From sequence record PQ429079.1: a stretch of 45,476 nt of DNA. One strand, written 5' to 3'. Below are positions 18,981 through 34,617 of this stretch, in pieces. Every line of letters starts with the position of its first letter. The first letter of the stretch is position 1. Position numbers and translations under genes: made by a program. The notes under the pieces were generated by a model. It was not told the origin of the DNA. It made no database searches and saw only the letters and a program-made list of their open reading frames with translations. This DNA comes from Escherichia phage vB_VIPECOTPH05A.

Positions 18981-19175
18981 ATGAAACACGAATATGACCG
19001 CAAGCCAGCACGTGACATCGTACCTGGCGACATGATTTTCAACGTTAAGACCCGCCAGCCTGTTGCCGTTGATACTGTGTTCGTCGAGTCAAACGGTAAA
19101 CTGGTTATCGAAGATGTAACAGGCAACGTTACTGCGTTCGGGCGTAAAGAGCTGGTACTCTACGTTAAGGATTGA
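18981..19175 (+). CDS. hypothetical protein
   Basis: 64-aa ORF with RBS AAGGAATTGAG. Confidence 0.45.
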   Translation: MKHEYDRKPARDIVPGDMIFNVKTRQPVAVDTVFVESNGKLVIEDVTGNVTAFGRKELVLYVKD

Positions 19176-21643
19176 ACATGTCTAAATTTATCCGTCGAGG
19201 GTACCAGAAGCTCATGACTTCGTTCATGCTGCAACACCCGCGCTGTAATATCTGGGCCAGTATGGGTAGCGGCAAGTGCCTGAAACGCGGGACTGAAGTT
19301 ATTATGTTTGACGGTACGACCAAGAAAGTAGAAGACGTCATCGTCGGTGACGTGCTTATGGGGCCGGATTCGACGCCTAGAAATGTACTGTCTCTCGGTA
19401 GAGGCCGGGAGATGATGTACGAGGTTAAACCGCGAAAAGGAGAGTCGTATACGGTCAACGAAAGCCATATATTATCCCTGCGAACTACTACAGGGATCGC
19501 AAAAGGTTCATGGCCAGATAATACCGTTTTCGACATAAGCGTCCGCGACTGGCTTAAGTTGCCGAAATATGTAACCGGACCTAATGGGTATCTTAAGGGT
19601 TGGCGGGTACCTGTCGATTTTACAAGGAAAGAGCAGGACGAGGCTTTATTGCCTCCGTACCTTATGGGGTTATGGCTGGGTGACGGTACTTCGTCGTCGG
19701 GGGCCATAACATCAGGAGAGAACGAAAAGGAAATAAGGGCTTATCTTGAGTCGTACGCAGCACGTAATGGGATGCAAATACGAAAAGAAGGACTTACATG
19801 GAGTATATCTTACGGCAACACAGGTCATAAGAAGCACGGGTTTACGCACGCGCTGAAATCGGCGGGTGTCCTGAACAATAAGCATATACCGCATAGTTAC
19901 AAATGCGGCGACCGGCGACAGCGGTTAGAATTGCTGGCGGGGCTTCTGGATAGTGATGGTTACTGCGATTTGTCTAAAGCGGGTTTTGACTGGATTTCGG
20001 TAAGCGAGCGACTTGCTGATGATTTTTGTTATCTATGCCGTTCTCTTGGTTTTGCTGCTTACAAGAAGAAAACTCGTAAGCGTTGCGCAAACACTGATGT
20101 TTGGGGTGACTACTTCCGTGTGTCGGTATCTGGCGATTTTTCTGAGGTACCTTTCGTGCGAGGACGCCACCAGAATTTACCGAAGCGTAATATTAATAAG
20201 AACGTGCTTAACGTTGGGATAGAATCCATAACCCCGGTCGGCGTAGATGATTATTTTGGCTTCACTATCGACGGTGACAGTAGGTTTTTATTGGGGGACT
20301 TCACTGTCACGCACAATACAAGCTCAACGTTGTGGGTTCTCAACCGCCTGTTCCGTAATGGGCAACTTAATGACGACGACCGCGTGTTAATCCTCGCCCC
20401 GTTGCGTGTTGCGTCTGGCACGTGGCCTGCGGAACAGGCACGTTGGGGTTTCCCGTGCCTGCGTGTCGTAGATGCAACTGGTTCAGAGAAGCGCCGCATC
20501 GCGGCGCTGGAGTCGGACGCTAACGTGGTGTGCACTAACTACGAAGTTATCGAATGGCTTATTGACTACTACGGCAAAGACGACTGGCCTTTTACAGTTA
20601 TTGTCGCCGATGAAAGCACGAAGCTGAAATCGTTTCGCAGCCGTTCAGGTGGTAGCAAGCGTGCAAAGGCGCTCAGCAAAGTGGCGTTTGGTAAGGTTAA
20701 GCGTTTTATCAACCTGACCGGTACGCCGTCACCAAACGGCCTCAAAGACTTGTGGGGGCAGAACTGGTTTATAGACGCAGGCGAGCGACTTGGTTCTTCG
20801 TACACGGCATTCACTGACCGCTGGTTTAACTCGGTGCAGAAAGGGAAGTCCGCGATGGCGCGCGAGTATCACGCACGACCGGGTGCAGATAATGAAATTC
20901 ATCAGAAGATGAAGGATATCAGTCTCACTATCGATGCCGCAGAGTGGTTCGGTTGCGAAGCGCCGATTATCGTTCCTGTTGAAATAGACCTGCCGAAGAA
21001 AGCGCGTCAGGCGTACATCGATATGGAGGAGAAGTTATTTGCGGAACTCGAGAGCGGAGAAGTCGAAGCGGCTAATGCCGCGGCGAAGACGTCGAAGTGT
21101 TTGCAGATTGCATCCGGTGCCGTATATGTGTCAGGGCCAGATGGCGAAGCAACAAAAGACTGGGAGAAAGTGCACGACACGAAACTGGATGCGCTCGAGT
21201 CGATTGTTGAGGAGTTACAGGGTGCGCCGTTACTGGTAGCCTATCAGTTTAAGCACGAACTGGAGCGTATCCTTAAGCGATTCCCGCAAGCGCAGGCGTT
21301 TGCCAAAGGCGCTAAGGGTAATAAGCAGATGGAAGCGTGGAACCGTGGGGGAATCGAAATCTTATGCGTTCACCCCGCGTCAGCGGGCCATGGTTTGAAT
21401 TTACAGGACGGTGGACATCATCTGGTATTCATATCGCAAGGCTGGAACCTTGAGCACTATTTGCAGGTTGTCGAGCGCATAGGCCCCGTACGCCAGAAAC
21501 AGGCGGGGCATGAGCGCCCGGTGTTCCTTTATCACATCGTTGCTAAAGACACGCTGGATGAGGTTGTTGCCGCGCGTACAGACGAGAAGAAATCGGTCCA
21601 GGAAGAGTTGCTTAATTACATGAAGAGACGAGGTAAGAAATGA
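19172..21643 (+). CDS. SNF2-family helicase, intein-containing
   Basis: extein has Walker A GSGK|T (split by intein), DEST box VADESTKL, LTGTPSPNGLKDLW, HPASAGHGLNLQ, Q..G...R. Confidence 0.75.
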   Translation: MNMSKFIRRGYQKLMTSFMLQHPRCNIWASMGSGKCLKRGTEVIMFDGTTKKVEDVIVGDVLMGPDSTPRNVLSLGRGREMMYEVKPRKGESYTVNESHILSLRTTTGIAKGSWPDNTVFDISVRDWLKLPKYVTGPNGYLKGWRVPVDFTRKEQDEALLPPYLMGLWLGDGTSSSGAITSGENEKEIRAYLESYAARNGMQIRKEGLTWSISYGNTGHKKHGFTHALKSAGVLNNKHIPHSYKCGDRRQRLELLAGLLDSDGYCDLSKAGFDWISVSERLADDFCYLCRSLGFAAYKKKTRKRCANTDVWGDYFRVSVSGDFSEVPFVRGRHQNLPKRNINKNVLNVGIESITPVGVDDYFGFTIDGDSRFLLGDFTVTHNTSSTLWVLNRLFRNGQLNDDDRVLILAPLRVASGTWPAEQARWGFPCLRVVDATGSEKRRIAALESDANVVCTNYEVIEWLIDYYGKDDWPFTVIVADESTKLKSFRSRSGGSKRAKALSKVAFGKVKRFINLTGTPSPNGLKDLWGQNWFIDAGERLGSSYTAFTDRWFNSVQKGKSAMAREYHARPGADNEIHQKMKDISLTIDAAEWFGCEAPIIVPVEIDLPKKARQAYIDMEEKLFAELESGEVEAANAAAKTSKCLQIASGAVYVSGPDGEATKDWEKVHDTKLDALESIVEELQGAPLLVAYQFKHELERILKRFPQAQAFAKGAKGNKQMEAWNRGGIEILCVHPASAGHGLNLQDGGHHLVFISQGWNLEHYLQVVERIGPVRQKQAGHERPVFLYHIVAKDTLDEVVAARTDEKKSVQEELLNYMKRRGKK
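19277..20317 (+). mobile_element. intein with LAGLIDADG homing endonuclease domain (347 aa)
   Basis: begins Cys (CLKRGTEVIMFDG) right after GSGK, ends ...THN followed by Thr; two LAGLIDADG-like blocks LMGLWLGDGT and LLAGLLDSDGY. Confidence 0.75.
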
Positions 21644-21777: not shown

Positions 21778-21809
21778 AGAAAAGGCCCCTTTCGGGGCCT
21801 TGTTTATTT
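21776..21809. terminator. bidirectional rho-independent terminator
   Basis: stem AGGCCCC/GGGGCCT flanked by A-run and T-run, at convergence of the replication and structural modules. Confidence 0.7.
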
Positions 21810-24144
21810 AACTGTTTGTCAGGGTAGCCACTAATGTCTCAAGCGCTATAATCCTTTTCTCTAACTGAGCTGCTTTACGTCGCTGTAACGCAGCCTCTAA
21901 TATCAATACCTCATCATAACGAATACCATACCGCTCCCCTGCCGCCGTAGCTTTTGTTAATACTTCCCCAGATTCCTCATCAATAATTTCCGGAGACGCT
22001 TCCCACTTATCGTAGCACAGGAAACCGTACTTAGTCGCGTCCAACCCGTGCCGGGTAAACGCCTCAATTGCTCGTTGGGCTACTACTCCAAAGTGCCACC
22101 TAGCTGCATCCTCCCCCTTCTCTGCAACCCTATCCAGGTACTTATATTGAACTAAATTAACTTCAGCCCAAGCGTCTAACATAGCGTCAGTTAATTCCAG
22201 GGGTAGTGTCTTGGCTCTCTCGTCAGACGTAACCGTAAACGCTGTTTGAGTGAATCCGCCGGACAAAGCGAGACTTGCCGACCCGATAGCGACGGTGTTT
22301 GCACTGGATGGTGTAATAGCCGTCGGTGCTATTTGAATATACGCCAATGTGTCAGAGGCTAAGCGTAAATTACCATTAACCAGAGAAATAGTTCGAGAAG
22401 TACCATTAGATGTGAGTAATTTTATCTGAGAGGTCGTACCTCCACCAATAGCCAAAGATGTAGCCCCATCGGAAATTAGTCTGAATTTATCAGCTGTCAC
22501 AAAACGCAATGCAGAAGTATCTATATACTTAGTGAACCACTCAAACCTACCGGACATGGACCCTATGTATTGTCCTATAGCGGGGGCGTGTACCACGTTA
22601 CTGGTGGTAGTACCATCAATGCTAGAGACCCCGGTTATAGTAGATAGTGAACTAAGAAGACTGTTCTTGGGTCCAGGGTGCTTTACTTCCACAAAGTTAC
22701 GGGTAGTCCCTGTCTCTAGTGTAACAACCCCGGAAGCACTATACATAGGGAAAACCGATGCGTAGTTATTACTAGCTCCGTCTAAAAACCTAATAGAAGT
22801 CGCGGTTTGCGTTTGCCCTAAACTATTAGTTCCGCTGCACCCAACCATTAGAATATTATCAGCGGCATTATAGTTGCCTTGTAATGTAACGCCGTGTGCT
22901 TGCGTGGCCTCGGAGGAGGAGTAATCAGCTACAACATTTGACACCAGATTACCTGAACCCTTGCCGGTGACCACAGCGGCGTACTTAGCGTTATTAGCAA
23001 CAACATTACTGATAATATTACTGCTAGGGGCATTGGTCGTCTCGGTGCCATTATAAACAACGTGCTGACAGCTTTGCCCAATGACGCCACTAACAACATT
23101 ACATTTAGCATCTGTTTTCAACTCAACCGCCCCGAATTGGGGGTAGTTTCGGGCGATAACATCGTTGATTATAGTATTACTTGCGGACTCAAACAGCACG
23201 CACCCCGCTGTTTTATTTGTAGCATACCCGGAGTAGTCGCCCCGTATGCCGCTTACAATGTATCCAGACGGACCCCCATCACTAGGGTATGCTATTAAAC
23301 TAAATCCAGTTCCCTTTGCATTTTTAAAATCAATACCTTTAATAGTAACGTCCTGCCCACCGGCGAAGGAAACCTGCTGACCCTGTGTGAAGTCCGTTGC
23401 CTTATTTCCTACAATACTCAGGGTGCTAAGTAGCCCTCCTGCAGGTTTATCAAAGATTAAGTGGTTTCCAGAATCGTTTGATTGTTTTAAAACCCCACCC
23501 CCTGTTCCGAATAGAGAGCATGTCGGGTGGGAGAGTAGCGACGTACTATACTCCCCTTGCGGTACAAGCACCCCGTTACTAGCTGTAAGCGCTCGGTTAA
23601 GGGCGTTTGTGTAATCAGGGTCAGTACCTAAATAGAAGTCCAGAACGGAAACTACTTCTCTATTTTTATCGTGTTGCGTCCTGCCGACAGCGTCGGTAAA
23701 TGGTTGTCGGACGCCGACCATGGCATCACCTAATGTCGCATTGTCTGTGCTGGATAAATCATTGCGCAAATCCGGGTCAGTACGCGGCTCCCAGTTAGCG
23801 TTACCTACGGGATTAAAACTCGCGGGAACTGTAACTGGTAACGTCCCCGCGTACGAGTACCACGTTTTACTTACAGGGTCGTACACCACTTTGTCGCGGT
23901 CATTAACTGTTAACGTACCGCCAGAGGAGAAATCCCACGATACAGGAGAAAAACCAGCATCACGCAACACGGCGGGTAACGTCTTCTGTGTCTGCCCTGT
24001 AACCTGGTTTGTTGCGTAATCAATATCGGCTCCGCCAGCGACACCGCCGGATTTGCCAGTGATAACCTCGGCTTCGAAAATCTGGTGTTTCTTGGCGGTT
24101 TGTAAATCCGCCAGGCTTAAAACGTCACCGCATCCGCTTGACAT
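21808..24144 (-). CDS. tailspike/tail fiber with beta-helix (depolymerase-like) domain and C-terminal intramolecular chaperone
   Basis: 778 aa; repetitive beta-helix-like middle; C-terminal region around TSDERAKT resembles the auto-cleaving chaperone (S74) domain. Confidence 0.7.
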   Translation of the reverse strand: MSSGCGDVLSLADLQTAKKHQIFEAEVITGKSGGVAGGADIDYATNQVTGQTQKTLPAVLRDAGFSPVSWDFSSGGTLTVNDRDKVVYDPVSKTWYSYAGTLPVTVPASFNPVGNANWEPRTDPDLRNDLSSTDNATLGDAMVGVRQPFTDAVGRTQHDKNREVVSVLDFYLGTDPDYTNALNRALTASNGVLVPQGEYSTSLLSHPTCSLFGTGGGVLKQSNDSGNHLIFDKPAGGLLSTLSIVGNKATDFTQGQQVSFAGGQDVTIKGIDFKNAKGTGFSLIAYPSDGGPSGYIVSGIRGDYSGYATNKTAGCVLFESASNTIINDVIARNYPQFGAVELKTDAKCNVVSGVIGQSCQHVVYNGTETTNAPSSNIISNVVANNAKYAAVVTGKGSGNLVSNVVADYSSSEATQAHGVTLQGNYNAADNILMVGCSGTNSLGQTQTATSIRFLDGASNNYASVFPMYSASGVVTLETGTTRNFVEVKHPGPKNSLLSSLSTITGVSSIDGTTTSNVVHAPAIGQYIGSMSGRFEWFTKYIDTSALRFVTADKFRLISDGATSLAIGGGTTSQIKLLTSNGTSRTISLVNGNLRLASDTLAYIQIAPTAITPSSANTVAIGSASLALSGGFTQTAFTVTSDERAKTLPLELTDAMLDAWAEVNLVQYKYLDRVAEKGEDAARWHFGVVAQRAIEAFTRHGLDATKYGFLCYDKWEASPEIIDEESGEVLTKATAAGERYGIRYDEVLILEAALQRRKAAQLEKRIIALETLVATLTNS

Positions 24145-27059: not shown

Positions 27060-27586
27060 GTGATTAACAGGCCGCGTAATAAAGGTATCTCTTTAGGTGT
27101 CATGAGTATACCAGTGCTTCGTTGGTTAAGCATAGGTGTCCCTAAATTAGCGGAGAATCGCCCCTTGTCCTGAGCTATGGTCTGCGCCTCGTATGCCACA
27201 GGGCCGTCTGCCGGGTAAGACAGGTCGGTGCTGACATAACGGCGAAATATGAACTTCGGCAACTCAGTACTATCCATCGGAATATTATCCAGTTCATCGT
27301 CCAGTAAATTTCCGACGTCAGGAAGTGTAAACGTCGTCGTCTGGTCCATGTCGTTATTGTTAGCGGCTCCCGACGCTTCCATCGGTGTTGGCTCGAACGT
27401 GATTGTTTCGCCTGTCTCCAGTGTTGCCGTAAGTTCCTGTAGCCCTCGAACAAGATAGTACGTCTTCGACAGCAACGGGTGGCTGATTTGCAACGTGATG
27501 TAGTCCATCTCGCCGTCGGGATTCGAGGCCAGCTTACGGCGATAGGCGGCTTCTACTGATTCCTGGCTCATTGCATCGGGTCCCAA
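27056..27586 (-). CDS. minor tail protein (lambda L-like position)
   Basis: 176-aa ORF between M-like and K-like genes. Confidence 0.45.
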   Translation of the reverse strand: MGPDAMSQESVEAAYRRKLASNPDGEMDYITLQISHPLLSKTYYLVRGLQELTATLETGETITFEPTPMEASGAANNNDMDQTTTFTLPDVGNLLDDELDNIPMDSTELPKFIFRRYVSTDLSYPADGPVAYEAQTIAQDKGRFSANLGTPMLNQRSTGILMTPKEIPLLRGLLIT

Positions 27587-28068
27587 ATTCGTGGAAACGT
27601 TGATTGCGCGGTTCCGTAGGCTTTAAGGAAGCAATTAAGCCCGTCGCCATAACAACCATACAAATCCGGCAGATTGCTAACAAGGCACTGGTTATATTCA
27701 TCCTGGAACGGCGATTTCTCGGCGGTTGCCGTGAAGGTAATCGTCCAGTTAATGCCGTCTTCGGTGGACTCCGCGATGGTGGATGTAATTGTTACCTGGT
27801 AATCCTCAATGCCCATGCCGAAGTCGTGCGCCATCCAGAAACTTGAAGCACCACCATCGACTTTCTCAATGAACGACAGAAACGCCTGTCGCCCTAGTGC
27901 TGAGGTAATCAGGGTTACGCTTATCGGGAACACGTCGTAATACGTGTCACGGCCCTGACGCACCCCGCCACCGGCTAAATCTACACTCCAGACGTTGTTA
28001 CGTCTGGTCATTGAGTAGCCTTTTGATACCACCGGCTTAAGGCTACGTGGAAAGTATAAGTCGCTCAT
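27568..28068 (-). CDS. minor tail protein (lambda M-like)
   Basis: FLSFIEKVDGGASSFWM resembles lambda gpM ESFLEEHGGWKSFLW; follows tape measure. Confidence 0.5.
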   Translation of the reverse strand: MSDLYFPRSLKPVVSKGYSMTRRNNVWSVDLAGGGVRQGRDTYYDVFPISVTLITSALGRQAFLSFIEKVDGGASSFWMAHDFGMGIEDYQVTITSTIAESTEDGINWTITFTATAEKSPFQDEYNQCLVSNLPDLYGCYGDGLNCFLKAYGTAQSTFPRIWDPMQ

Positions 28069-30395
28069 TATTTAAACCCCGGCGCATTTCTTGTGGCCTT
28101 GCGGGCCTTGCTAATCTTACTGTTGCTGTTCTGCAAAGAGGCAGCCACCTGCTCTTCTATGATGATGCGCAAACGGCCTTCGTCATCCTGCTCGGTAGAT
28201 ACGTTGCCAATCTGACTCGATGTGTTATTTACAATGGTAACATTAGATGGGCCAGAAGAAGACCCATTTTGCCCCATAATTTCTTTCATCTGCTGCGCAG
28301 TTCGTACGCGCGATGCACCAGCAGGCATGATAACTTCTGGTTTACCGCGTTCGGCGATGGTGGAAGCCTGCCCCGCAGATAACTGACCGCCCTGTTCACG
28401 TGCGGACCTGATAGCGGAAACCTGCGCCATACCTGCCCCAACGGCAGCGGCAGCGGCTACAGGGGCCAGGAACGGGCCAACTACAGGGATAGCCGCCGTG
28501 GACTTGTATGCCTCAATAGCTGCGGTGTACGTGGCTATAGTGGCCTGTACGATAGCGAATGCCTTATACGCGCCAGAAGCCTCACCCAACGCAGACCCGA
28601 TGTTTGAGGCCATGTTGCCAAAGGCCGTTGCCGTTGCGTCGGCGCGCTTCGTAGCATACTGCTCATTGATAGCGTTAAGCGCCGCCTGATACTGTTCCTC
28701 GTTAATAAGCCCCTGTTCACGGTATTTATCTGCGACCGCCAGTTTCTGCTGTTCCTGGATGTCGAGAAGCTCAAGCTCAGCGGCGTTCTGGCCCATAATC
28801 TGAGCCATGAAGTCGTCGCCTTTCTGCTGCTTTTCCTGCTGCTCTTTTCTTTTCTTATCCAGTTCTTCCTGTCTGGCCTGCTCGGCTGTGAGCATAATTT
28901 GAGTTTTGGCGTTTTCATACTGCTGCTGGCTTATCGTTCCGGCGCGGTTGAACTCCTCCAGTTTCGCCAGTTTCTGTTCTTCTGCCGCCGTGATACGAGA
29001 AATTTCGTCTCCAGTAGTGCGGTCGACAGTAGCCAGGAAATCTTCGGCGGCTTTCTTCTGACGTTGCGCCGCCGTTTCTTCACGTTTGGCCTGCGCCGCC
29101 AGACGTTTCTCGTTCGATTTAGCCTCGCGGTCTGCCTTCGCTTTTTCGGTAGCGTCGATGCGGGCGATGTCTTGCTGCGCTTCCGCGTCACGGGCAGCGT
29201 TATACGCGGCTATCTGTTCTTTGGTGACAGCTTCACGTTTAGCGAACGCCTGCTTATCCAGTTCAGCTTGTGCCCGGATGCGCTCACGGTCGCTTAAGAT
29301 GGCAATTTGCTGATTCTTGACGATAGCTTCGTTCTGCTCCTGGAACCTCTGTGTGGTTGAGTTAACGTTACGTCCAAGATTCTTTTGGGCCTCTGCCGCC
29401 GCGTTTGCTGACTTCTCTGCGTTCTCCAGTGCCGTGGCGTTCTTATTGGCATTGTCAGTCAGGCGGATAAGTTCCGGGTTCAACTGTTTTGTGTTACCGA
29501 GCCAGTCGGTAAACACATCGGCGATACGACGGGCATTCTCGGCGGTTGGTTCTTTGTTAAACGCACTCTGCGCCGCTATCATCTCCAGCGCCTGGTCACG
29601 GTTAACTCCGAACTTACTGCTAAGCTCCGCGATATTCTGCGCCAGCATGTTGACGCCCACGATGTTACCTTCGTAAGTGCCGCCGAGTTTTTCTAACGTG
29701 TCGCCTACATCCGCACCCTTAGATACCAGTGCATCGTACTGACTAATAGCCGATGTCGTGGAGGCTTTCCACGTTTCCCACGATTCGGCATCTTCACGAA
29801 CAGCTTTAGCGGTTTGCTGTGCGATAAGGTCCGCGTTAGCCTTAGCCAGAGCAAGCTGAGTCTCCGCCGCCTCCCTACTGATTTGGGTAAGCTGGATAAG
29901 GCCGTCTGTCAGTTCGAGGGAGCCAGATGCCGTTTGCTGGAAAGTATCTTTTAACTGTTTCTGTGCGGCTTCGAGGTCTTTTGAACTGCCTTCTGCTTCG
30001 GTTAGCGATTTGTACAGTACCCCGCCAACAGCCGACGCTAGCGCGATTACCGCTCCAAGTACAGCACCCCCCGGTCCGAAGGCACCTGCAAGCTGGGAGC
30101 CTTGTTGCCCTATCGCTACGAATGCGGACGTGCCGGACTGCAACTGGACGACCATGTCCTGTACCTGGAAGCCCACCTGCCCGGCGGCGTTACGGAACTT
30201 GGCAAAACCGTCGGACGCGGCTTTAGAGGTAGCGGTGTTAACTTTATTAACATCCGGAGTTAGTTTGTTTACAGATGCGTCCGCCCGGTCTGCGGATGCC
30301 GCCATAGCGTCAAGCTGTTTGGCGGCGACGTCAGCCCCTTCAGTTTTTACTCTGGCGATTAGGGAAGCCGTATCAGCCATCTTCTCTGCCCTCAA
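28068..30395 (-). CDS. tail tape measure protein
   Basis: 775 aa, Ala/Gln/Glu-rich coiled-coil; C-terminal hydrophobic/Gly-rich region; downstream of G/GT chaperones. Confidence 0.8.
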   Translation of the reverse strand: MRAEKMADTASLIARVKTEGADVAAKQLDAMAASADRADASVNKLTPDVNKVNTATSKAASDGFAKFRNAAGQVGFQVQDMVVQLQSGTSAFVAIGQQGSQLAGAFGPGGAVLGAVIALASAVGGVLYKSLTEAEGSSKDLEAAQKQLKDTFQQTASGSLELTDGLIQLTQISREAAETQLALAKANADLIAQQTAKAVREDAESWETWKASTTSAISQYDALVSKGADVGDTLEKLGGTYEGNIVGVNMLAQNIAELSSKFGVNRDQALEMIAAQSAFNKEPTAENARRIADVFTDWLGNTKQLNPELIRLTDNANKNATALENAEKSANAAAEAQKNLGRNVNSTTQRFQEQNEAIVKNQQIAILSDRERIRAQAELDKQAFAKREAVTKEQIAAYNAARDAEAQQDIARIDATEKAKADREAKSNEKRLAAQAKREETAAQRQKKAAEDFLATVDRTTGDEISRITAAEEQKLAKLEEFNRAGTISQQQYENAKTQIMLTAEQARQEELDKKRKEQQEKQQKGDDFMAQIMGQNAAELELLDIQEQQKLAVADKYREQGLINEEQYQAALNAINEQYATKRADATATAFGNMASNIGSALGEASGAYKAFAIVQATIATYTAAIEAYKSTAAIPVVGPFLAPVAAAAAVGAGMAQVSAIRSAREQGGQLSAGQASTIAERGKPEVIMPAGASRVRTAQQMKEIMGQNGSSSGPSNVTIVNNTSSQIGNVSTEQDDEGRLRIIIEEQVAASLQNSNSKISKARKATRNAPGFK

Positions 30396-31151
30396 ATATT
30401 CCGTCTAAGCCCATGATAACCTCGGCTTCGAACAAACTTATGCCGTAACCGGCGACATCGCGAAACGCAGCCAAATCTTGCCATTTGAGCGCATCGCGCG
30501 GGATTATAACGATAGTATCATCTGTTTCGCGCTGTAGGAATTTAATGGCCCGGTATTTCTCGAACACGTCGATAAGAGAAACGGGGCATTCCGGCCCCGT
30601 CGCTTCTTTCATCTGCGGTTCTTTAATCACGCCCATTGCAATCAAAGCCGCCTGGTGTCCCGCCGCGATGTCGTCGAATTGCTTACGTTTGTGGCGGTCG
30701 ACAAAGCACCATTGCGCAAATTCATACAGCGCTTTTACTTTTCCGAGAGTTTCTCGCGGCTATCGGTGTGGTGCTTAACTACAGCCTCCGCCAACCCACT
30801 GTACTGGTCGAACAGGTTAGCCAGCGCCTCTTTACTGAACGGCTCATCGAAGGACCAACCGGTGACGATTTCCACGGCGAGCTGCTTGTTCAGGTCCATA
30901 ACCCGCCAGCCCTTCTCATCGTTATAGCGCGCCCAGTTATTCAATGCCTCACACTCTTTATCTAACGGCGCAAGTTCTTCCGTAAGGCGTCGAATTGCCG
31001 TTGTGTAGGCGCGGCCTGCTCGAACGCCCGCATCGCAATCGGGGCCAATGACCTGCAGCCATTCGCCAGAGTCTTTTCCGCTAGGCAGAAGGATTGGCAT
31101 TTTAGTACCGGCGGCGTGACGGTCGGCAAAATAGAAATCAGAAAGTTTCAT
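30373..31151 (-). CDS. tail assembly chaperone frameshift product (GT-like, via -1 frameshift near 30738)
   Basis: -1 frame is open from the G stop region through 30373; ORF-track 30373..30645 is its 3' part. Confidence 0.5.
30735..31151 (-). CDS. tail assembly chaperone (G-like)
   Basis: 138-aa ORF upstream of tape measure, ends ...SEK at slippery GAA-AAG-TAA. Confidence 0.6.
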   Translation of the reverse strand: MKLSDFYFADRHAAGTKMPILLPSGKDSGEWLQVIGPDCDAGVRAGRAYTTAIRRLTEELAPLDKECEALNNWARYNDEKGWRVMDLNKQLAVEIVTGWSFDEPFSKEALANLFDQYSGLAEAVVKHHTDSREKLSEK

Positions 31152-31258
31152 TCTTTAGTCCTTTGGTTAAGAGGTTACTGGTTATGGTTAATGCGCCAGG
31201 CGGGAACCACCCGCTTTTCGTGTGCGACACTAGGCGCAAACTTATTCTAACACACTAC

Positions 31259-31287
31259 TTGCACACCCCAATATAATAGGGTACTAT
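31259..31287 (+). promoter_or_regulatory. sigma70-like promoter (TTGCAC-N17-TACTAT) for opposite-strand island
   Basis: drives plus-strand genes from 31316 inside the minus-strand tail operon. Confidence 0.5.
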
Positions 31288-31315
31288 TCACCCGTAACTT
31301 ACTGAGGAAACAATT

Positions 31316-31642
31316 ATGCGTAAATTAGTATTAGCTCTGGGGTTTATGTCTTTTGCTACTTTTGGGACTCCGTGTGAACAGGTATTTAGCGAATCTGTTC
31401 TTATGACTTCTGGTGTGCTTGAGAAAGCCGACCCTACTATTGTAAAGGCATTTAAGGACTCTACCGTTCGCGAGTGTGAAGCCGCCGTAGAGGTTGGTAA
31501 ATCTGGTCTACCTCCGCAAGCAGTAACATACACGGTGATACGTTCGGTAGAGAAAAACGGAGACGCGTTTTACAGCCTGCTGACAGCCACCCGCCTGCAA
31601 ATGGTAATGGCTGGATGGGCGATAGGCGCGGAAAGTAAATAG
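31316..31642 (+). CDS. secreted/periplasmic small protein (signal peptide)
   Basis: N-terminus MRKLVLALGFMSFATFG is signal-peptide-like; RBS GAGGAAA. Confidence 0.55.
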   Translation: MRKLVLALGFMSFATFGTPCEQVFSESVLMTSGVLEKADPTIVKAFKDSTVRECEAAVEVGKSGLPPQAVTYTVIRSVEKNGDAFYSLLTATRLQMVMAGWAIGAESK

Positions 31643-31708
31643 TCGCCTTTATTTAAAGGAACGCACTGTGGTTAAATAGGACAAATCCTAAACGCGAGGA
31701 AGTAAAGC

Positions 31709-32839
31709 ATGGCCCAGATTAAAATAACCGACGAACAGTTACAGGAAGAATTGAACGCCGGAACAAAGATTATCGACATATCCCGTAAATACGGCATCTC
31801 AGACCGAGTTATTCGTATCCGTAAAGCGAAGCTGGCGAAGAAAGGCGTAGGTCACGGTCGTGACGTTAGCCATCTTGTCCCGGACGGCTACAAGATTAAA
31901 GGCACGTCGTCACTTGTTGACGAGTTCGGCAACACTAAACTGCAATGGGTTAAGACTGATACCGACGCCGAACGTCAGGTTGAATTGATGAAAGCCGTAA
32001 TTGAAGGCATGAAGTCAGAGATTACGCCCGTTGCGCCTGTTAAAGCTGTTCGCGCCAAACGCGACGACAAGCTACTCAATCTTTACACGGTATCTGATTT
32101 CCATCTCGGTATGCTGGCATGGGCTGATGAGAGCGGAGACGACTGGGACATGAAGATTGCAGAAGACCTGTTCTCCCGATGGTTCGACGCGGCGTTCCAG
32201 AAAGCACCGGATGCAGGAACAGGAGTTATTAACCTTCTGGGCGACCTCGCTCACTTCGATAGTCTGGATGCGGTTACACCTGCAAGTGGTCATGTTCTTG
32301 ACGCGGACACGCGCTATCAGAAACTTGTACGCTACATGATTCGTATGGTCCGCCGTGTCGTTGATATGGCTCTGGTTAAACATAAAAATGTTCGCTTGCT
32401 TATCGTGCAAGGGAATCACGACGAAAGTGGCATGATTTGGTTGGCTGAGATGTTCAGCACGCTGTACGACAATGAGCCGCGTGTGTTCGTCGATACGTCG
32501 CCGGATGTTTACAAGATGGTGCAACACGGCAAAACGACGCTGTTCTTCCATCACGGACATAAAGCACGCTTCGACGCTATCGAACCGGTTATGATTGCCA
32601 AGTTCCGCAAAGCGTTCGGCGAGAGCGTTTATAGCTACGCCCACGTAGGCCACCTGCACCACCAGAAAATTGTAGAAAGCCGTAACATGATTGTTGAGCA
32701 ACACCGCACCCTGGCGGCTAAAGACGCCTACGCCTCTCGCGGCGGATGGATGTCAGGTCGTAGTGCAAATGTAATTACTTATAGCGCCGAATATGGTGAG
32801 GTCGCACGTTTAACTATTTCACCGGAGATGCTGGGATGA
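31709..32839 (+). CDS. HTH-fused calcineurin-like metallophosphoesterase
   Basis: N-terminal HTH (IIDISRKYGISDRVIRIRKAK); phosphoesterase motifs SDFHLG, GDLAHFD, QGNHDE, HHGH, GHLHH. Confidence 0.6.
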   Translation: MAQIKITDEQLQEELNAGTKIIDISRKYGISDRVIRIRKAKLAKKGVGHGRDVSHLVPDGYKIKGTSSLVDEFGNTKLQWVKTDTDAERQVELMKAVIEGMKSEITPVAPVKAVRAKRDDKLLNLYTVSDFHLGMLAWADESGDDWDMKIAEDLFSRWFDAAFQKAPDAGTGVINLLGDLAHFDSLDAVTPASGHVLDADTRYQKLVRYMIRMVRRVVDMALVKHKNVRLLIVQGNHDESGMIWLAEMFSTLYDNEPRVFVDTSPDVYKMVQHGKTTLFFHHGHKARFDAIEPVMIAKFRKAFGESVYSYAHVGHLHHQKIVESRNMIVEQHRTLAAKDAYASRGGWMSGRSANVITYSAEYGEVARLTISPEMLG

Positions 32840-33036
32840 AAGACATGTATGAATGCACCGAGGTAAGTCCGTATGCAGAGAAAAATGGGTTCGAAGTAGG
32901 TGCGGTGTACGAAGGAGTCACCCTAGAGAATGGCGATGTAAGAATGTATTCGCCTAAATATCGCAGCTTCTTTGAAATAGGCAACATTAACGAGTCAGGC
33001 ATAGCCAGATTTAAGAGAGTTAACAGTGACAAATAA
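32836..33036 (+). CDS. hypothetical protein
   Basis: 66-aa ORF, ATGA-coupled to the phosphoesterase gene. Confidence 0.4.
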   Translation: MKDMYECTEVSPYAEKNGFEVGAVYEGVTLENGDVRMYSPKYRSFFEIGNINESGIARFKRVNSDK

Positions 33037-33256
33037 ATACAACCGCACAATGACAAACACCTACGGCAGCACTATGACTGTAGACGTTTACGATGTACTA
33101 CGCGCATTCGATATACGCGACCCGGCGTTACAGCACGCATTGAAGAAGTTATTGTGCATGGGTCTTCGCGGCCACAAAGATACCGGGACAGACTTAGCGG
33201 AAGCAATTGAAAGTCTGGAGAAGTTACGGGAGTACAGGAGTAATATTGATGAGTAA
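33026..33256 (+). CDS. hypothetical protein
   Basis: 76-aa ORF. Confidence 0.4.
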   Translation: MTNKYNRTMTNTYGSTMTVDVYDVLRAFDIRDPALQHALKKLLCMGLRGHKDTGTDLAEAIESLEKLREYRSNIDE

Positions 33257-33422
33257 GAATGTAATGAAAACAATATACATAATCCGCGTATACGACAAAG
33301 AATGGGACGAGTGGAATGATATCTATGCTGTAAGTAGCCGGGAAGATGCGTTAGATGAATATTCACGGCTTCGGGATAAAGGAGAACTCGTTAACTTCTA
33401 CCCTATGCAATTGAAGGAATAA
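33249..33422 (+). CDS. hypothetical protein (57 aa)
   Basis: ORF 33207..33422; likely ATG at 33249 with AGGAG RBS. Confidence 0.4.
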   Translation: MSKNVMKTIYIIRVYDKEWDEWNDIYAVSSREDALDEYSRLRDKGELVNFYPMQLKE

Positions 33423-33452
33423 GAAAAAGGCCCCGTTAGGGGCCTTAGTTTT
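33422..33452. terminator. bidirectional rho-independent terminator
   Basis: stem AGGCCCC/GGGGCCT flanked by A5 and T-rich runs, between island and major tail gene. Confidence 0.7.
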
Positions 33453-34617
33453 ATACGTAACTAATACGTTGAATTACGATGGACGACTGGTACTGATTGC
33501 CTGTGGACTGTCCTTCTATGCTCTGAGTGATTGACTCAGGCCCGCCAATCTCTGGCGTAACCGCCGTAAGTTCCGCACGTTTCAAACTGAAAGACATAGC
33601 CCCGTTTACCCCCGCCAGAATAGAGTTAATCTCTACCTGCTGTTCGTTGATAAACTTCTGAATCATCACCATGTCGTACAGCTTGCCGGAGATAGAGAAG
33701 GTGTTAGCCGCGCGTCCACGTTCCACGAACGCCACGCTACTGTTGCCGAGTTCGAACTGCGCGGATGCGCTGTTGTCGTTGGTGATGGTCAGAGTATCGC
33801 AACGCAACGGCGTAGAACCGTCGAACACAGACACATCTACGGATGAGAACGGCTCGTCACCAAACGTAACAGAGGAGAAGTCGGAACCAGACGGCGCCGC
33901 GGTAAGAATCTCCTGGCTGCGCCCGATGAACGGGAAGCTGCCCGTCACCATCGCGTTAACGGCCTGTTCAACAGTGAAACCAGAAACTTCCACGCCTTTG
34001 GTAAGCGTGTACGCGTCTGTCCCGCCGCACTGGCCCTTGTACCAGGTGAGAATAGAGAACGTCTTACACTGGCTGCCTGTTTCCAGTTTGTCGCCGGTCT
34101 TAGCCGCGGTAGTAGCAGTCTCGGTGATCAGAGTGTGTTGAATACCTGCACCAGTTACCACCAGTGCCTCTACCGCAGTAACAATAAACGGTTTAGCGTT
34201 ATCGCCGGTTAAGCCAGTAAACGCAATCAGGTCGCCTACTTCCACACCGTCAGTAATAAAGCTACCTTCGGCACGGGTGAACGTCTTGCCCACCGGTGCG
34301 ACGGTAATCGACAGCCCCGACAGAGAAACACCGGATTGCCACGTAGAGCCTAAAGCACCCGCCAGCCAGTCGTCCTGGCTTTTAGAGCTAAGCTCGACCG
34401 CGTATTCACCGCTAACCTGTTTGTTACCGGTTCGAATGGATGTAGTTTCACGGCTGCCGTCGAGTTCGTTGGAGGTCAGCGCATCGCGGGTTACCGCAGG
34501 AACACCGCCCGTATTGCGCAGCGGCGACCAGGCAGGGTTGGCTGGGGTTACGCCCGGGGTCACTTCCGCCACATAGAATTGCGCTGTATTCGCGCCCTTA
34601 AAAGGAGTTGTAGCCAT
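33451..34617 (-). CDS. major tail protein
   Basis: 388-aa Thr/Ser/Gly-rich protein between tail-terminator-like and chaperone genes. Confidence 0.6.
   Translation of the reverse strand: MATTPFKGANTAQFYVAEVTPGVTPANPAWSPLRNTGGVPAVTRDALTSNELDGSRETTSIRTGNKQVSGEYAVELSSKSQDDWLAGALGSTWQSGVSLSGLSITVAPVGKTFTRAEGSFITDGVEVGDLIAFTGLTGDNAKPFIVTAVEALVVTGAGIQHTLITETATTAAKTGDKLETGSQCKTFSILTWYKGQCGGTDAYTLTKGVEVSGFTVEQAVNAMVTGSFPFIGRSQEILTAAPSGSDFSSVTFGDEPFSSVDVSVFDGSTPLRCDTLTITNDNSASAQFELGNSSVAFVERGRAANTFSISGKLYDMVMIQKFINEQQVEINSILAGVNGAMSFSLKRAELTAVTPEIGGPESITQSIEGQSTGNQYQSSIVIQRISYV

What the first reader, a model, noticed from the sequence alone, without database searches (positions are those of the whole stretch)
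31316..31642. Signal-peptide protein heading the accessory island
The first island gene encodes a 108-aa protein with an N-terminal hydrophobic signal-like sequence (MRKLVLALGFMSFATFG) and no obvious enzymatic motif, so it is probably periplasmic. Phage-encoded periplasmic proteins often act in superinfection exclusion or receptor masking.
Basis: inference. Interest (0 to 1): 0.45.

Follow-up and report, generated by a model that had tools for sequence, protein, structure and literature searches.

The report
Secreted phage protein replacing Imm gene
This small gene of an E. coli phage encodes a protein that is almost certainly exported to the periplasm, and it occupies the exact position where most related phages carry a known gene that blocks entry of a second phage, so it is probably a new, untested kind of entry-blocking protein.

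Summary
The ORF (31316..31642, +, 108 aa) is real. It has an ATG start and a GAGGA ribosome-binding site, occurs in 98 GenBank phages, and shows dN/dS 0.04-0.10. All homologues keep a Sec-type signal peptide ending at a small-residue cleavage site, followed by a helical domain of about 91 aa with two invariant cysteines. It is not a lipoprotein. No Pfam, NCBIfam or PDB relative exists; the only match is phrog_14165 (function unknown).

The new finding is contextual. The gene is a precisely bounded cassette (31293..31675) behind a conserved promoter-like spacer. In about 350 of 448 related Guernseyvirinae records, the same position holds a T4 Imm-type superinfection-immunity gene (PF14373). A third allele, seen once, encodes a single-pass membrane protein. 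All occupants found in close relatives are small envelope proteins, and none of the 45 allele-fetched or 50 tube-anchored loci carries two.

The allele co-segregates with the adjacent tail assembly chaperone and the N-terminal two-thirds of the tape measure (32/32 in Kagunavirus). Two exceptions exist elsewhere.

Best reading: a periplasmic superinfection-exclusion protein, with the incoming tape measure as a speculative target. The function is untested.

The parts
31316..31642 (+). SP108 gene: 108 codons plus a TAG stop; member of phrog_14165
31316..31366 (+). Predicted Sec signal peptide (residues 1-17; predicted cleavage TFG|TPCE)
   Evidence: n-h-c layout and the -3/-1 rule, conserved across the family; pLDDT <50 for residues 1-14
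31367..31639 (+). Mature all-helical domain of about 91 aa, pI about 5.0. Invariant Cys20 (31373-31375) and Cys54 (31475-31477); conserved C-terminal motif SLLxATRxxxxxxGWxxGxE
31304..31308 (+). Shine-Dalgarno sequence GAGGA, 7 nt upstream of the ATG
   Evidence: sequence
31259..31287 (+). Promoter-like element TTGCAC-17 nt-TACTAT. Jerseyvirus keeps the same layout (TTGCAT-17-TATTAT). It ends 5 nt before the cassette junction
   Evidence: Only 7/12 consensus matches, so the automatic scan did not call it; its function is inferred
31293..31675 (+). Exchangeable cassette (5' leader, ORF and 3' tail). In other phages it is replaced, with identical junctions, by two Imm-type variants or by a single-pass membrane-protein gene
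31130..31291 (.). Conserved 162-bp spacer between the chaperone gene and the cassette, about 93-95% identical in both module types. It groups by genus, not by module type. It contains a conserved hairpin (GCGGG-AACCA-CCCGC-TTTT, 31200-31218)
28932..31129 (-). Type-specific part of the co-segregating module: tape measure residues 1 to about 488, and the tail assembly chaperone G/T genes (TMP 28068..30395; T extension 30373..30645; chaperone 30735..31151)
31709..32839 (+). Downstream metallophosphoesterase / DNA repair exonuclease (phrog_704). Its 5' leader forms the conserved 3' junction of the cassette. Probably co-transcribed
33427..33446 (.). Bidirectional terminator-like hairpin that closes the + strand island

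Best explanation
SP108 is a small Sec-exported periplasmic protein made by a virulent Kagunavirus-type siphophage.

What the sequence shows, with the predicted steps marked: after predicted cleavage around residue 17, an acidic all-helical domain of about 91 residues is released. It probably carries a Cys20-Cys54 disulfide (inferred).

Shown by comparison: the gene is a precisely delimited cassette placed directly behind a conserved promoter-like element. It is one of several mutually exclusive occupants of that position. The commonest alternative is a T4 Imm-family superinfection-immunity protein.

Inferred: SP108 does the same job as Imm. Once the cell is infected, it prevents a second phage of the same kind from delivering its DNA, acting in the periplasm rather than within the inner membrane.

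More speculative: its target is the tape measure protein, or the channel it forms, of the incoming virion. This idea rests on two points. First, the cassette travels with a particular version of the tape measure (N-terminal two-thirds) and its chaperone. Second, the tape measure is the only product of that module that a periplasmic protein could ever meet.
For: Gene is real and under purifying selection: dN/dS 0.04-0.10.

Export:
- Signal peptide and both cysteines conserved down to 28% identity.
- Confident helical model with a disordered N-terminus: pLDDT 83.6, pTM 0.75.

Same position as Imm:
- Snoke, VIPECOMC04 and about 350 other records carry a PF14373 Imm gene (51.6 bits) at this position.
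- The cassette junctions are identical to the nucleotide for SP108, two Imm variants and a third membrane-protein allele.

Either/or occupancy:
- Per-genus counts add up exactly: Salmonella 64+263=327, Escherichia 29+73=102, Kagunavirus 3+8=11.
- 0 of 45 allele-fetched loci and 0 of 50 tube-anchored loci carry both.
- 33 of 34 Kagunavirus-level loci carry one of the two. The remaining one carries another small membrane protein.

Position conserved in distant lineages: homologues at 27-48% identity, and a remote Serratia phage homologue, sit at the same place next to the chaperone gene even though the rest of the island differs.

Linkage to the tape measure and chaperone:
- In Kagunavirus, 32/32 A-type chaperone records are the 32 SP108 records.
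- The near-isogenic phage L024 differs from the window only in TMP (34%), chaperone (48-53%) and this gene.
- The spacer between them groups by genus while both flanks group by type.

Precedents:
- HK97 gp15 is an exclusion moron lying between the chaperone and tape measure genes, and its action depends on the incoming tail (PMC3594210).
- TP-J34 Ltp binds the incoming tape measure and works as a soluble secreted protein (PMC3952083).
Against: - No experiment exists. The function rests on position and on the nature of the alternative alleles.
- There is no sequence or fold similarity to any known exclusion protein.
- The TMP link is not absolute. SETP3 pairs an A-type TMP/chaperone with Imm, and L020 pairs an SP108-family gene with a C-type TMP. 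At the level of independent lineages the association gives Fisher p of about 0.05.
- Physical adjacency alone could produce the linkage.
- SP108 divergence does not track TMP divergence: L015 has SP108 32% / TMP 88%; L016 has SP108 48% / TMP 38%.
- The TMP C-terminal third, expected to contact the membrane first, is shared by both module types.
- Both mature SP108 and TMP residues 1-488 are acidic, so there is no Ltp-like charge complementarity.
- Some distant relatives have no island at all, so the function is dispensable.
Confidence: 0.5

Rival explanations
1. SP108 is an exported accessory (moron-type) protein with some other envelope function. Examples: tuning lysis timing as a periplasmic antiholin like T4 RI, protecting the infected cell from lysis-from-without, inhibiting a host periplasmic enzyme, or countering an envelope-located defence. 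Under this reading the position is simply a hotspot for small envelope genes.
For: - No homology to any exclusion protein.
- The island behind it is a variable region with unrelated cargo, and homing endonucleases in some relatives.
- A transcriptome paper on a Kagunavirus classed the Imm-type gene as late and linked it to lysis (PMC12645636).
- A third allele of unknown function exists.
Against: - A complete lysis set (two holins, endolysin, Rz/Rz1) lies far away in the close relative Bas70.
- The commonest alternative allele is a bona fide Imm-family protein.
- The either/or pattern across 448 records suggests one shared function rather than random cargo.
- A protein made after infection cannot protect the phage's own DNA entry.
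Confidence: 0.28
2. The N-terminal hydrophobic segment is not cleaved. It acts as a signal anchor or a releasable SAR-type anchor, so the helical domain works tethered to the outer face of the inner membrane, next to the DNA-entry site, like a membrane exclusion protein.
For: - The hydrophobic core is rich in Gly/Ala/Ser/Thr/Phe.
- The Kagunavirus c-region (TFG|TP) is less canonical than AXA.
- Both other alleles at this position are membrane-embedded.
Against: - The core is only 13-14 residues, short for a stable transmembrane helix. The mean Kyte-Doolittle hydropathy over 19 residues is about 1.1.
- Distant homologues have textbook AXA cleavage sites at the aligned position.
Confidence: 0.12
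3. SP108 masks or inactivates an outer-membrane or surface receptor, as T5 Llp and phi80/N15 Cor do. This would prevent adsorption of further phages or loss of progeny on cell debris.
For: This is a common role for exported proteins of virulent siphophages (general knowledge; Cor is described in PMC3594210).
Against: - No lipobox: the residue before Cys20 is Pro/Val/Thr/Gln, and the Cys lies at +3 of the predicted mature protein.
- The allele is independent of the tailspike and tail-tip genes, which vary freely in both allele groups.
- These phages recognise glycans through tailspikes (10.1101/2024.09.12.612763).
Confidence: 0.07
4. SP108 is a structural or assembly factor of the tail, because it sits inside the tail gene cluster and co-segregates with the tape measure and its chaperone.
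For: Tight linkage to the TMP/chaperone type. Position between the tail tube and chaperone genes.
Against: - It is transcribed divergently from the tail genes.
- An exported protein cannot take part in cytoplasmic tail assembly.
- It is replaceable by Imm in near-isogenic phages (L024) and absent from some relatives.
Confidence: 0.03

Closest known systems
T4 Imm (Pfam PF14373, Imm_superinfect; phrog_1039)
   Same: A small envelope-targeted protein of a virulent phage. In Guernseyvirinae it occupies exactly the same cassette position, behind the same promoter-like spacer, and is mutually exclusive with SP108.
   Different: No sequence relationship. Imm is a two-helix inner-membrane protein of about 63 aa here. 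SP108 is a soluble secreted helical domain with two cysteines.
T4 Spackle (Sp, gp61.3)
   Same: A precursor of about 100 aa with a Sec signal peptide and two cysteines, annotated 'spackle periplasmic' in the T4 record. It is known as a helical protein and as the partner of Imm in T4 exclusion (established knowledge).
   Different: - hhalign aligns only the signal peptide (probability 2.5%).
- Spackle inhibits the gp5 tail lysozyme, and no lysozyme or peptidase domain was detected in this phage's tail proteins.
TP-J34 Ltp (Streptococcus thermophilus phage)
   Same: An extracytoplasmic helical exclusion protein that binds the tape measure of the incoming phage. A secreted soluble form is active (PMC3952083).
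   Different: Ltp is a lipoprotein of a temperate Gram-positive phage. Its negatively charged repeats bind a basic TMP C-terminus. SP108 has no lipobox, and the type-specific TMP region here is acidic. No homology was tested or detected.
HK97 gp15 moron
   Same: A small exclusion gene inserted beside the chaperone and tape measure genes. Exclusion depends on the tail of the incoming phage (PMC3594210).
   Different: gp15 is an inner-membrane YebO-like protein expressed from a prophage. It lies between the chaperone and TMP genes on the same strand. SP108 is secreted, is encoded by a virulent phage and is transcribed divergently.
T5 Llp / phi80-N15 Cor
   Same: Exported proteins of siphophages that prevent reinfection.
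   Different: They are outer-membrane lipoproteins that block the protein receptor, and they are genetically coupled to the receptor-binding protein. SP108 has no lipobox and is uncoupled from the tailspike and tail tip.

Membership tests
phrog_14165 (unknown function) | Full-length match to the family profile | tested here: met
   E = 8.6e-56 over residues 1-108. Distant homologues also match, E 1e-11 to 1e-19.
Sec-dependent (SPase I) secreted proteins | Positively charged n-region, hydrophobic h-region of 10-15 residues, and a c-region with small residues at -3/-1 | tested here: met
   R2, K3; L4-F16; T-F-G|T in the window; S-F-A|H, A-L-A|S and A-I-A|G in homologues. This is a heuristic test; SignalP was not available.
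Sec-dependent (SPase I) secreted proteins | Actual export and cleavage | not testable with these tools
   Needs PhoA/Bla fusions or N-terminal sequencing.
Bacterial lipoproteins (as in the exclusion proteins Llp, Cor, Ltp) | Lipobox [LVI][ASTVI][GAS]C at the end of the signal peptide | tested here: not met
   The sequences before the Cys are FGTP-C, FAHP-C, LASP-C, AGPV-C and SDKV-C. None fits.
T4 Imm family (PF14373) | Match to the Imm_superinfect profile; two transmembrane helices | tested here: not met
   No Pfam hit at E<=10. The alternative allele scores 51.6 bits. SP108 has no segment of transmembrane strength besides the signal peptide.
T4 Spackle (gp61.3) | Sequence or fold homology to Spackle | tested here: not met
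T4 Spackle (gp61.3) | A virion-borne lysozyme as target | tested here: not met
   Pfam finds no lysozyme or peptidase domain in the TMP, tail tip, DUF1833 protein or small tail proteins. A relative's annotation of the 121-aa tail protein as a peptidoglycan hydrolase is not supported by Pfam.
DUF3718 (annotation of the orthologue in Salmonella phage S4lw) | Match to the Pfam or NCBIfam model | tested here: not met
   No hit for 19 + 7 family members in Pfam, nor for 8 members in NCBIfam, at E<=10.
Phage moron (Hendrix/Juhala sense) | Own promoter | tested here: inconclusive
   A promoter-like TTGCAC-17-TACTAT is conserved in two genera and ends 5 nt before the cassette. It has only 7/12 consensus matches and was not called by the scan.
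Phage moron (Hendrix/Juhala sense) | Own terminator and deviant base composition | tested here: not met
   No terminator lies between the ORF and the phosphoesterase gene; the first strong one is at 33427-33446. Cassette GC is 46% against 51% for the window, similar to the rest of the island.
Superinfection-exclusion proteins (functional class) | Expression blocks infection by a second phage after adsorption | not testable with these tools
   Only positional and allelic evidence is available.

The most novel reading that the evidence does not exclude
The tape measure (N-terminal two-thirds), its chaperone and the divergently transcribed envelope gene form a co-adapted injection/exclusion module with several variants: A with SP108, B and C with Imm, and a fourth with a single-pass membrane protein. 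Under this reading SP108 is a soluble periplasmic protein of a new fold family. It recognises the matching tape measure of incoming virions and aborts channel formation. The module variants would then define exclusion groups among otherwise near-identical phages.
Probability: 0.2. Interest if true: 0.75.

Novelty: new variant of a known kind. Interest (0 to 1): 0.55.

Why it matters
Only a handful of superinfection-exclusion proteins from virulent phages of Gram-negative bacteria are understood. Soluble periplasmic ones are essentially limited to T4 Spackle. SP108 would add an unrelated protein family to that list.

It would also offer a natural experiment. Near-isogenic phages differ only in the tape measure, chaperone and exclusion module. 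SP108-carrying phages Bas70-76 are in the public BASEL collection and grow on an engineered E. coli K-12.

This makes two questions directly testable: how DNA entry of small siphophages can be blocked from the periplasm, and whether exclusion specificity is tied to the tape measure.

There is a practical side too. Kagunavirus and Jerseyvirus phages are widely proposed for therapy and biocontrol cocktails, where mutual exclusion between cocktail members matters.

Tried and rejected
- **Existing annotations of orthologues.** 'Glycoprotein precursor' (Henuyfy11N, phiSD1) and 'DUF3718 domain-containing protein' (S4lw) have no support in Pfam or NCBIfam.
- **T4 Spackle homology.** Rejected by profile comparison and fold search.
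- **PDB sequence search.** Nothing meaningful.
- **P0029.** The 744-aa protein with six matched stretches is a repetitive Ig-like protein and a spurious hit.
- **Genome-contig scan.** The two 'Salmonella enterica' database entries lie on 42-43 kb phage-sized contigs.
- **phiEB49 gp19 (Drexlerviridae).** It has the same signal-peptide and two-cysteine layout, but hhalign probability is only 3% and it shares no PHROG. It stays a resemblance only.
- **My early inference.** I first inferred that the chaperone gene is conserved between alleles. That was wrong, because the query held only 17 chaperone codons. It was corrected.
- **Co-divergence of SP108 with TMP.** No correlation.
- **Ltp-like charge complementarity.** Not present.
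- **Lysis role by proximity.** Lysis genes are elsewhere.
- **AlphaFold co-folding of SP108 with TMP fragments.** Not attempted.

Full report
**Observation**

The ORF is exactly as described: 31316..31642 on the + strand, ATG start, 108 codons. It begins MRKLVLALGFMSFATFG and has a GAGGA ribosome-binding site 7 nt upstream.

The window is a Kagunavirus-type (Guernseyvirinae) E. coli siphophage. The gene is the first of a + strand island (31316..33422). That island is wedged between the - strand tail assembly chaperone (30735..31151, PF08748) and the tail tube gene (33451..34617).

The gene is real. 98 GenBank phage records encode it. Against ten Kagunavirus orthologues, dN/dS is 0.04-0.10 at dS 0.17-0.43.

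**The protein**

No Pfam or NCBIfam model matches any family member, even at E<=10. The only assignment is phrog_14165, function unknown.

The family is very narrow:
- 22 clusters at 90% identity.
- About nine genuine clusters among 1.84 billion representatives in an exhaustive profile search.
- 16 further divergent members found with a second profile.

Every member has a basic n-region, a 13-20 residue hydrophobic core and a small-residue cleavage site placed just before x-(P/V)-C-E. In the window this is TFG|TPCE. In others it is SFA|HPCE, ALA|SPCE or AIA|GPVCE.

The residues C20, E26, S32, C54, G61, G64, L88, W101 and G104 are invariant down to 28% identity. No sequence has a lipobox.

AlphaFold2 gives a confident model (pLDDT 83.6, pTM 0.75). 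Residues 1-14 are disordered, and the rest is an all-helical domain (helices 19-25, 28-31, 40-63, 68-76, 84-106).

The C-terminal helix is the best conserved segment. It is not hydrophobic enough for a membrane span.

I conclude with high confidence that this is a Sec-exported, probably disulfide-bonded, soluble periplasmic protein. The mature form is about 91 aa with pI about 5.0.

**The cassette**

Aligning the region with relatives shows that window 31293..31675 is replaced by unrelated DNA in many phages, while both flanks stay 91-95% identical.

In Snoke, VIPECOMC04 and many others the replacement encodes a 63-aa two-helix protein. It is a bona fide member of the T4 Imm family (PF14373, 51.6 bits; phrog_1039).

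The junctions are identical to the nucleotide for four unrelated inserts: SP108, two Imm variants and a third gene type.
- 5' junction: right after ...TACTATTCAC.
- 3' junction: right before (T)ATAGGACAAATCCTAAAC, the leader of the phosphoesterase gene.

The 5' junction lies 5 nt after a promoter-like element, TTGCAC-17-TACTAT. Jerseyvirus keeps the same layout (TTGCAT-17-TATTAT). The match to consensus is weak (7/12), and the automatic scan did not call it. Its role as a promoter is therefore inferred.

**Census**

| Record name begins with | SP108 | Imm-type | Sum | Region match |
|---|---|---|---|---|
| Salmonella | 64 | 263 | 327 | 327 |
| Escherichia | 29 | 73 | 102 | 102 |
| Kagunavirus | 3 | 8 | 11 | 11 |

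Overall, 448 GenBank phage records match the region, 98 have SP108, and 381 have the Imm-type gene (some of these lie outside the subfamily). The exact sums imply that each record has one gene or the other, but this rests on counts per first word of the record name, not on per-record lists.

Among 45 IMG/VR loci fetched by either gene, none has both.

In a sample anchored on the tail tube gene, which is blind to the allele, 50 loci contained a chaperone gene. Of these, 24 had Imm, 16 had SP108-family genes, 0 had both and 10 had neither.

Nine of the ten 'neither' loci are distant phages (tube 64-69% identical). They either lack the island or carry other genes.

The tenth, L093, has a Kagunavirus backbone and a third allele at the same junctions. 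This allele is a 97-aa single-pass membrane protein with no GenBank phage match.

So in close relatives every occupant found at this position is a small envelope-targeted protein.

**Conservation of position**

Homologues at 27-48% identity sit at the same place, first or second gene diverging from the chaperone gene. This holds in metagenomic Guernseyvirinae-like phages (L015-L020) and in phage MirsaeidiM_Esher4. The rest of the island differs or lacks the phosphoesterase.

In Serratia phage Tsm2 the whole island is a single 108-aa gene encoding a signal peptide plus a two-cysteine protein. It is a remote homologue (hhalign probability 77%, E 2e-5; Foldseek probability 0.99).

**Linkage to the tape measure module**

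I compared every gene within 10 kb across loci of both alleles.

| Gene | Identity to window, SP108 loci | Identity to window, Imm loci (Kagunavirus) |
|---|---|---|
| Chaperone G | 99-100% | 43-51% |
| Chaperone T extension | 96-98% | 47-54% |
| Tape measure (full-length loci) | 91-99% | 30-39% |

The tailspike, tail tip, DUF1833 protein, phosphoesterase, tube and capsid genes vary independently of the allele.

L024 is 96-100% identical to the window in its tail, phosphoesterase, connector and capsid genes. It differs in TMP (34%), chaperone (48-53%) and this gene.

At the DNA level, homology is lost from 28932 to 31129. This covers TMP residues 1 to about 488 and the chaperone G/T genes. Homology is lost again from 31292 to 31675. 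The two gaps are separated by a conserved 162-bp spacer.

The TMP C-terminal ~290 residues are shared by both types.

In GenBank, the 32 records with an A-type chaperone (>=95%) are the same 32 with a Kagunavirus-type SP108. In Jerseyvirus, 67 records have the A'-type chaperone and about 65 have SP108.

The spacer groups by genus (82-91% within Kagunavirus, ~65-71% between genera). The chaperone groups by module type (B versus B 92-93% across genera; A versus B ~47%). Recombination has therefore occurred at the spacer, yet the pairing persists.

The linkage is not absolute, for four reasons.
- SETP3 pairs an A-type TMP/chaperone with Imm, and L020 pairs an SP108-family gene with a C-type TMP.
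- Counting independent lineages gives roughly 8:1 versus 1:3, Fisher p of about 0.05.
- SP108 divergence does not mirror TMP divergence.
- Adjacency alone could explain much of the pattern.

Baig et al. 2017 independently listed 'tail assembly chaperone' and 'superinfection immunity protein' among the few genes separating K1 phage P from phages G and L. They did not interpret this (PMC5582158).

**Interpretation**

The best-supported reading is that SP108 is the functional counterpart of Imm. It would be a superinfection-exclusion protein made after infection, here acting as a soluble periplasmic factor.

The evidence is allelic and positional, not experimental.

The most specific mechanistic hypothesis is interference with the incoming tape measure. 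It rests on three things:
- the linkage described above;
- the point that TMP is the only product of the linked module that can enter the periplasm;
- two precedents, HK97 gp15 (PMC3594210) and TP-J34 Ltp (PMC3952083).

I rate exclusion at about 0.5 and the TMP-specific version at about 0.2.

Alternatives:
- A lysis-control role is unlikely, because a full lysis set lies elsewhere in the genome of the close relative Bas70.
- Receptor masking is unlikely, because there is no lipobox and no coupling to the receptor-binding genes.
- A Spackle-type lysozyme inhibitor is not supported. There is no homology, and no tail lysozyme domain was detected.

**Novelty**

No paper found in the searchable library describes this gene or the cassette polymorphism.

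It is best classed as a new variant of a known kind: a phage exclusion cassette built on an uncharacterised protein family, with an unusual and testable genetic coupling to the tape measure module.

Noticed in passing
window 28068..31675: The tape measure (N-terminal ~63%), the chaperone G/T genes and the envelope-protein cassette swap together between near-isogenic phages. At least four module variants exist: A with SP108, B and C with Imm, and a fourth in L093. The tape measure C-terminal third reassorts separately.
   Followed up: yes
L093 9071-9364 (- strand): Third allele at the same cassette junctions: a 97-aa single-pass membrane protein (MFELLIAAVVVLAIQTAFLFIVISKASRANEQIQLL...). It has only a weak phrog_5031 match and no GenBank phage match. 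Relatives occur elsewhere in the islands of L120 and L121.
   Followed up: partly
window 19172..21643 (+): The SNF2-type DNA helicase gene carries an intein near its N-terminus (Hom_end_hint at aa 36-110, E 2e-21, plus LAGLIDADG at aa 250-307). The Bas70 helicase is much shorter (1425 nt), consistent with an intein-free allele.
   Followed up: no
window 31200..31218: A small hairpin followed by a T-run (GCGGG-AACCA-CCCGC-TTTT) lies in the spacer. It is identical in Kagunavirus and Jerseyvirus although the surrounding spacer is only ~65-71% identical between the genera. It could be a regulatory element of the divergent chaperone/TMP or island transcripts.
   Followed up: no
L001 1563-1892 (Snoke CPT_Snoke_025): The deposited Imm CDS of Snoke (109 aa) starts inside the conserved promoter spacer. 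The likely true protein is the 63-aa product annotated in VIPECOMC04. The same over-extension appears as a 169-aa ORF in L093.
   Followed up: partly
L023 8094-8417 (phiEB49 gp19), and relatives in Drexlerviridae: Another orphan 107-aa phage protein has the same layout: signal peptide, a Cys just after the cleavage site, and a second Cys in a xCExA motif 35 residues later. It gives a weak Foldseek hit to the SP108 model. This may be a wider class of secreted two-cysteine helical phage proteins. Homology is not established (hhalign probability 3%).
   Followed up: partly
L069 3124-3450 (Serratia phage Tsm2), L108 (Serratia phage Eta): In these Serratia Guernseyvirinae the whole island between the tail tube and chaperone genes is reduced to the single remote SP108-like gene. 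This is a minimal version of the locus.
   Followed up: yes
window 32836..33422, and islands of L015-L021, 590B, NTEC3: The rest of the island is highly variable cargo: small ORFs, a phrog_2452 protein annotated as DUF3310 in one relative, HNH homing endonucleases in some relatives, and the phosphoesterase present or absent. It ends at a bidirectional terminator (33427-33446).
   Followed up: partly
window 27568..28068 versus L071 17462-18862 (Bas70_0029): The 166-aa tail gene just downstream of the tape measure gene in the window corresponds to a 466-aa gene in Bas70. This suggests an extra domain on a distal tail protein in some Kagunaviruses.
   Followed up: no
window 21808..24144 (-): The tailspike has a C-terminal Peptidase_S74 intramolecular chaperone domain of the endosialidase type. 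Its receptor-binding part is the most variable gene among relatives (8-97% identity).
   Followed up: no
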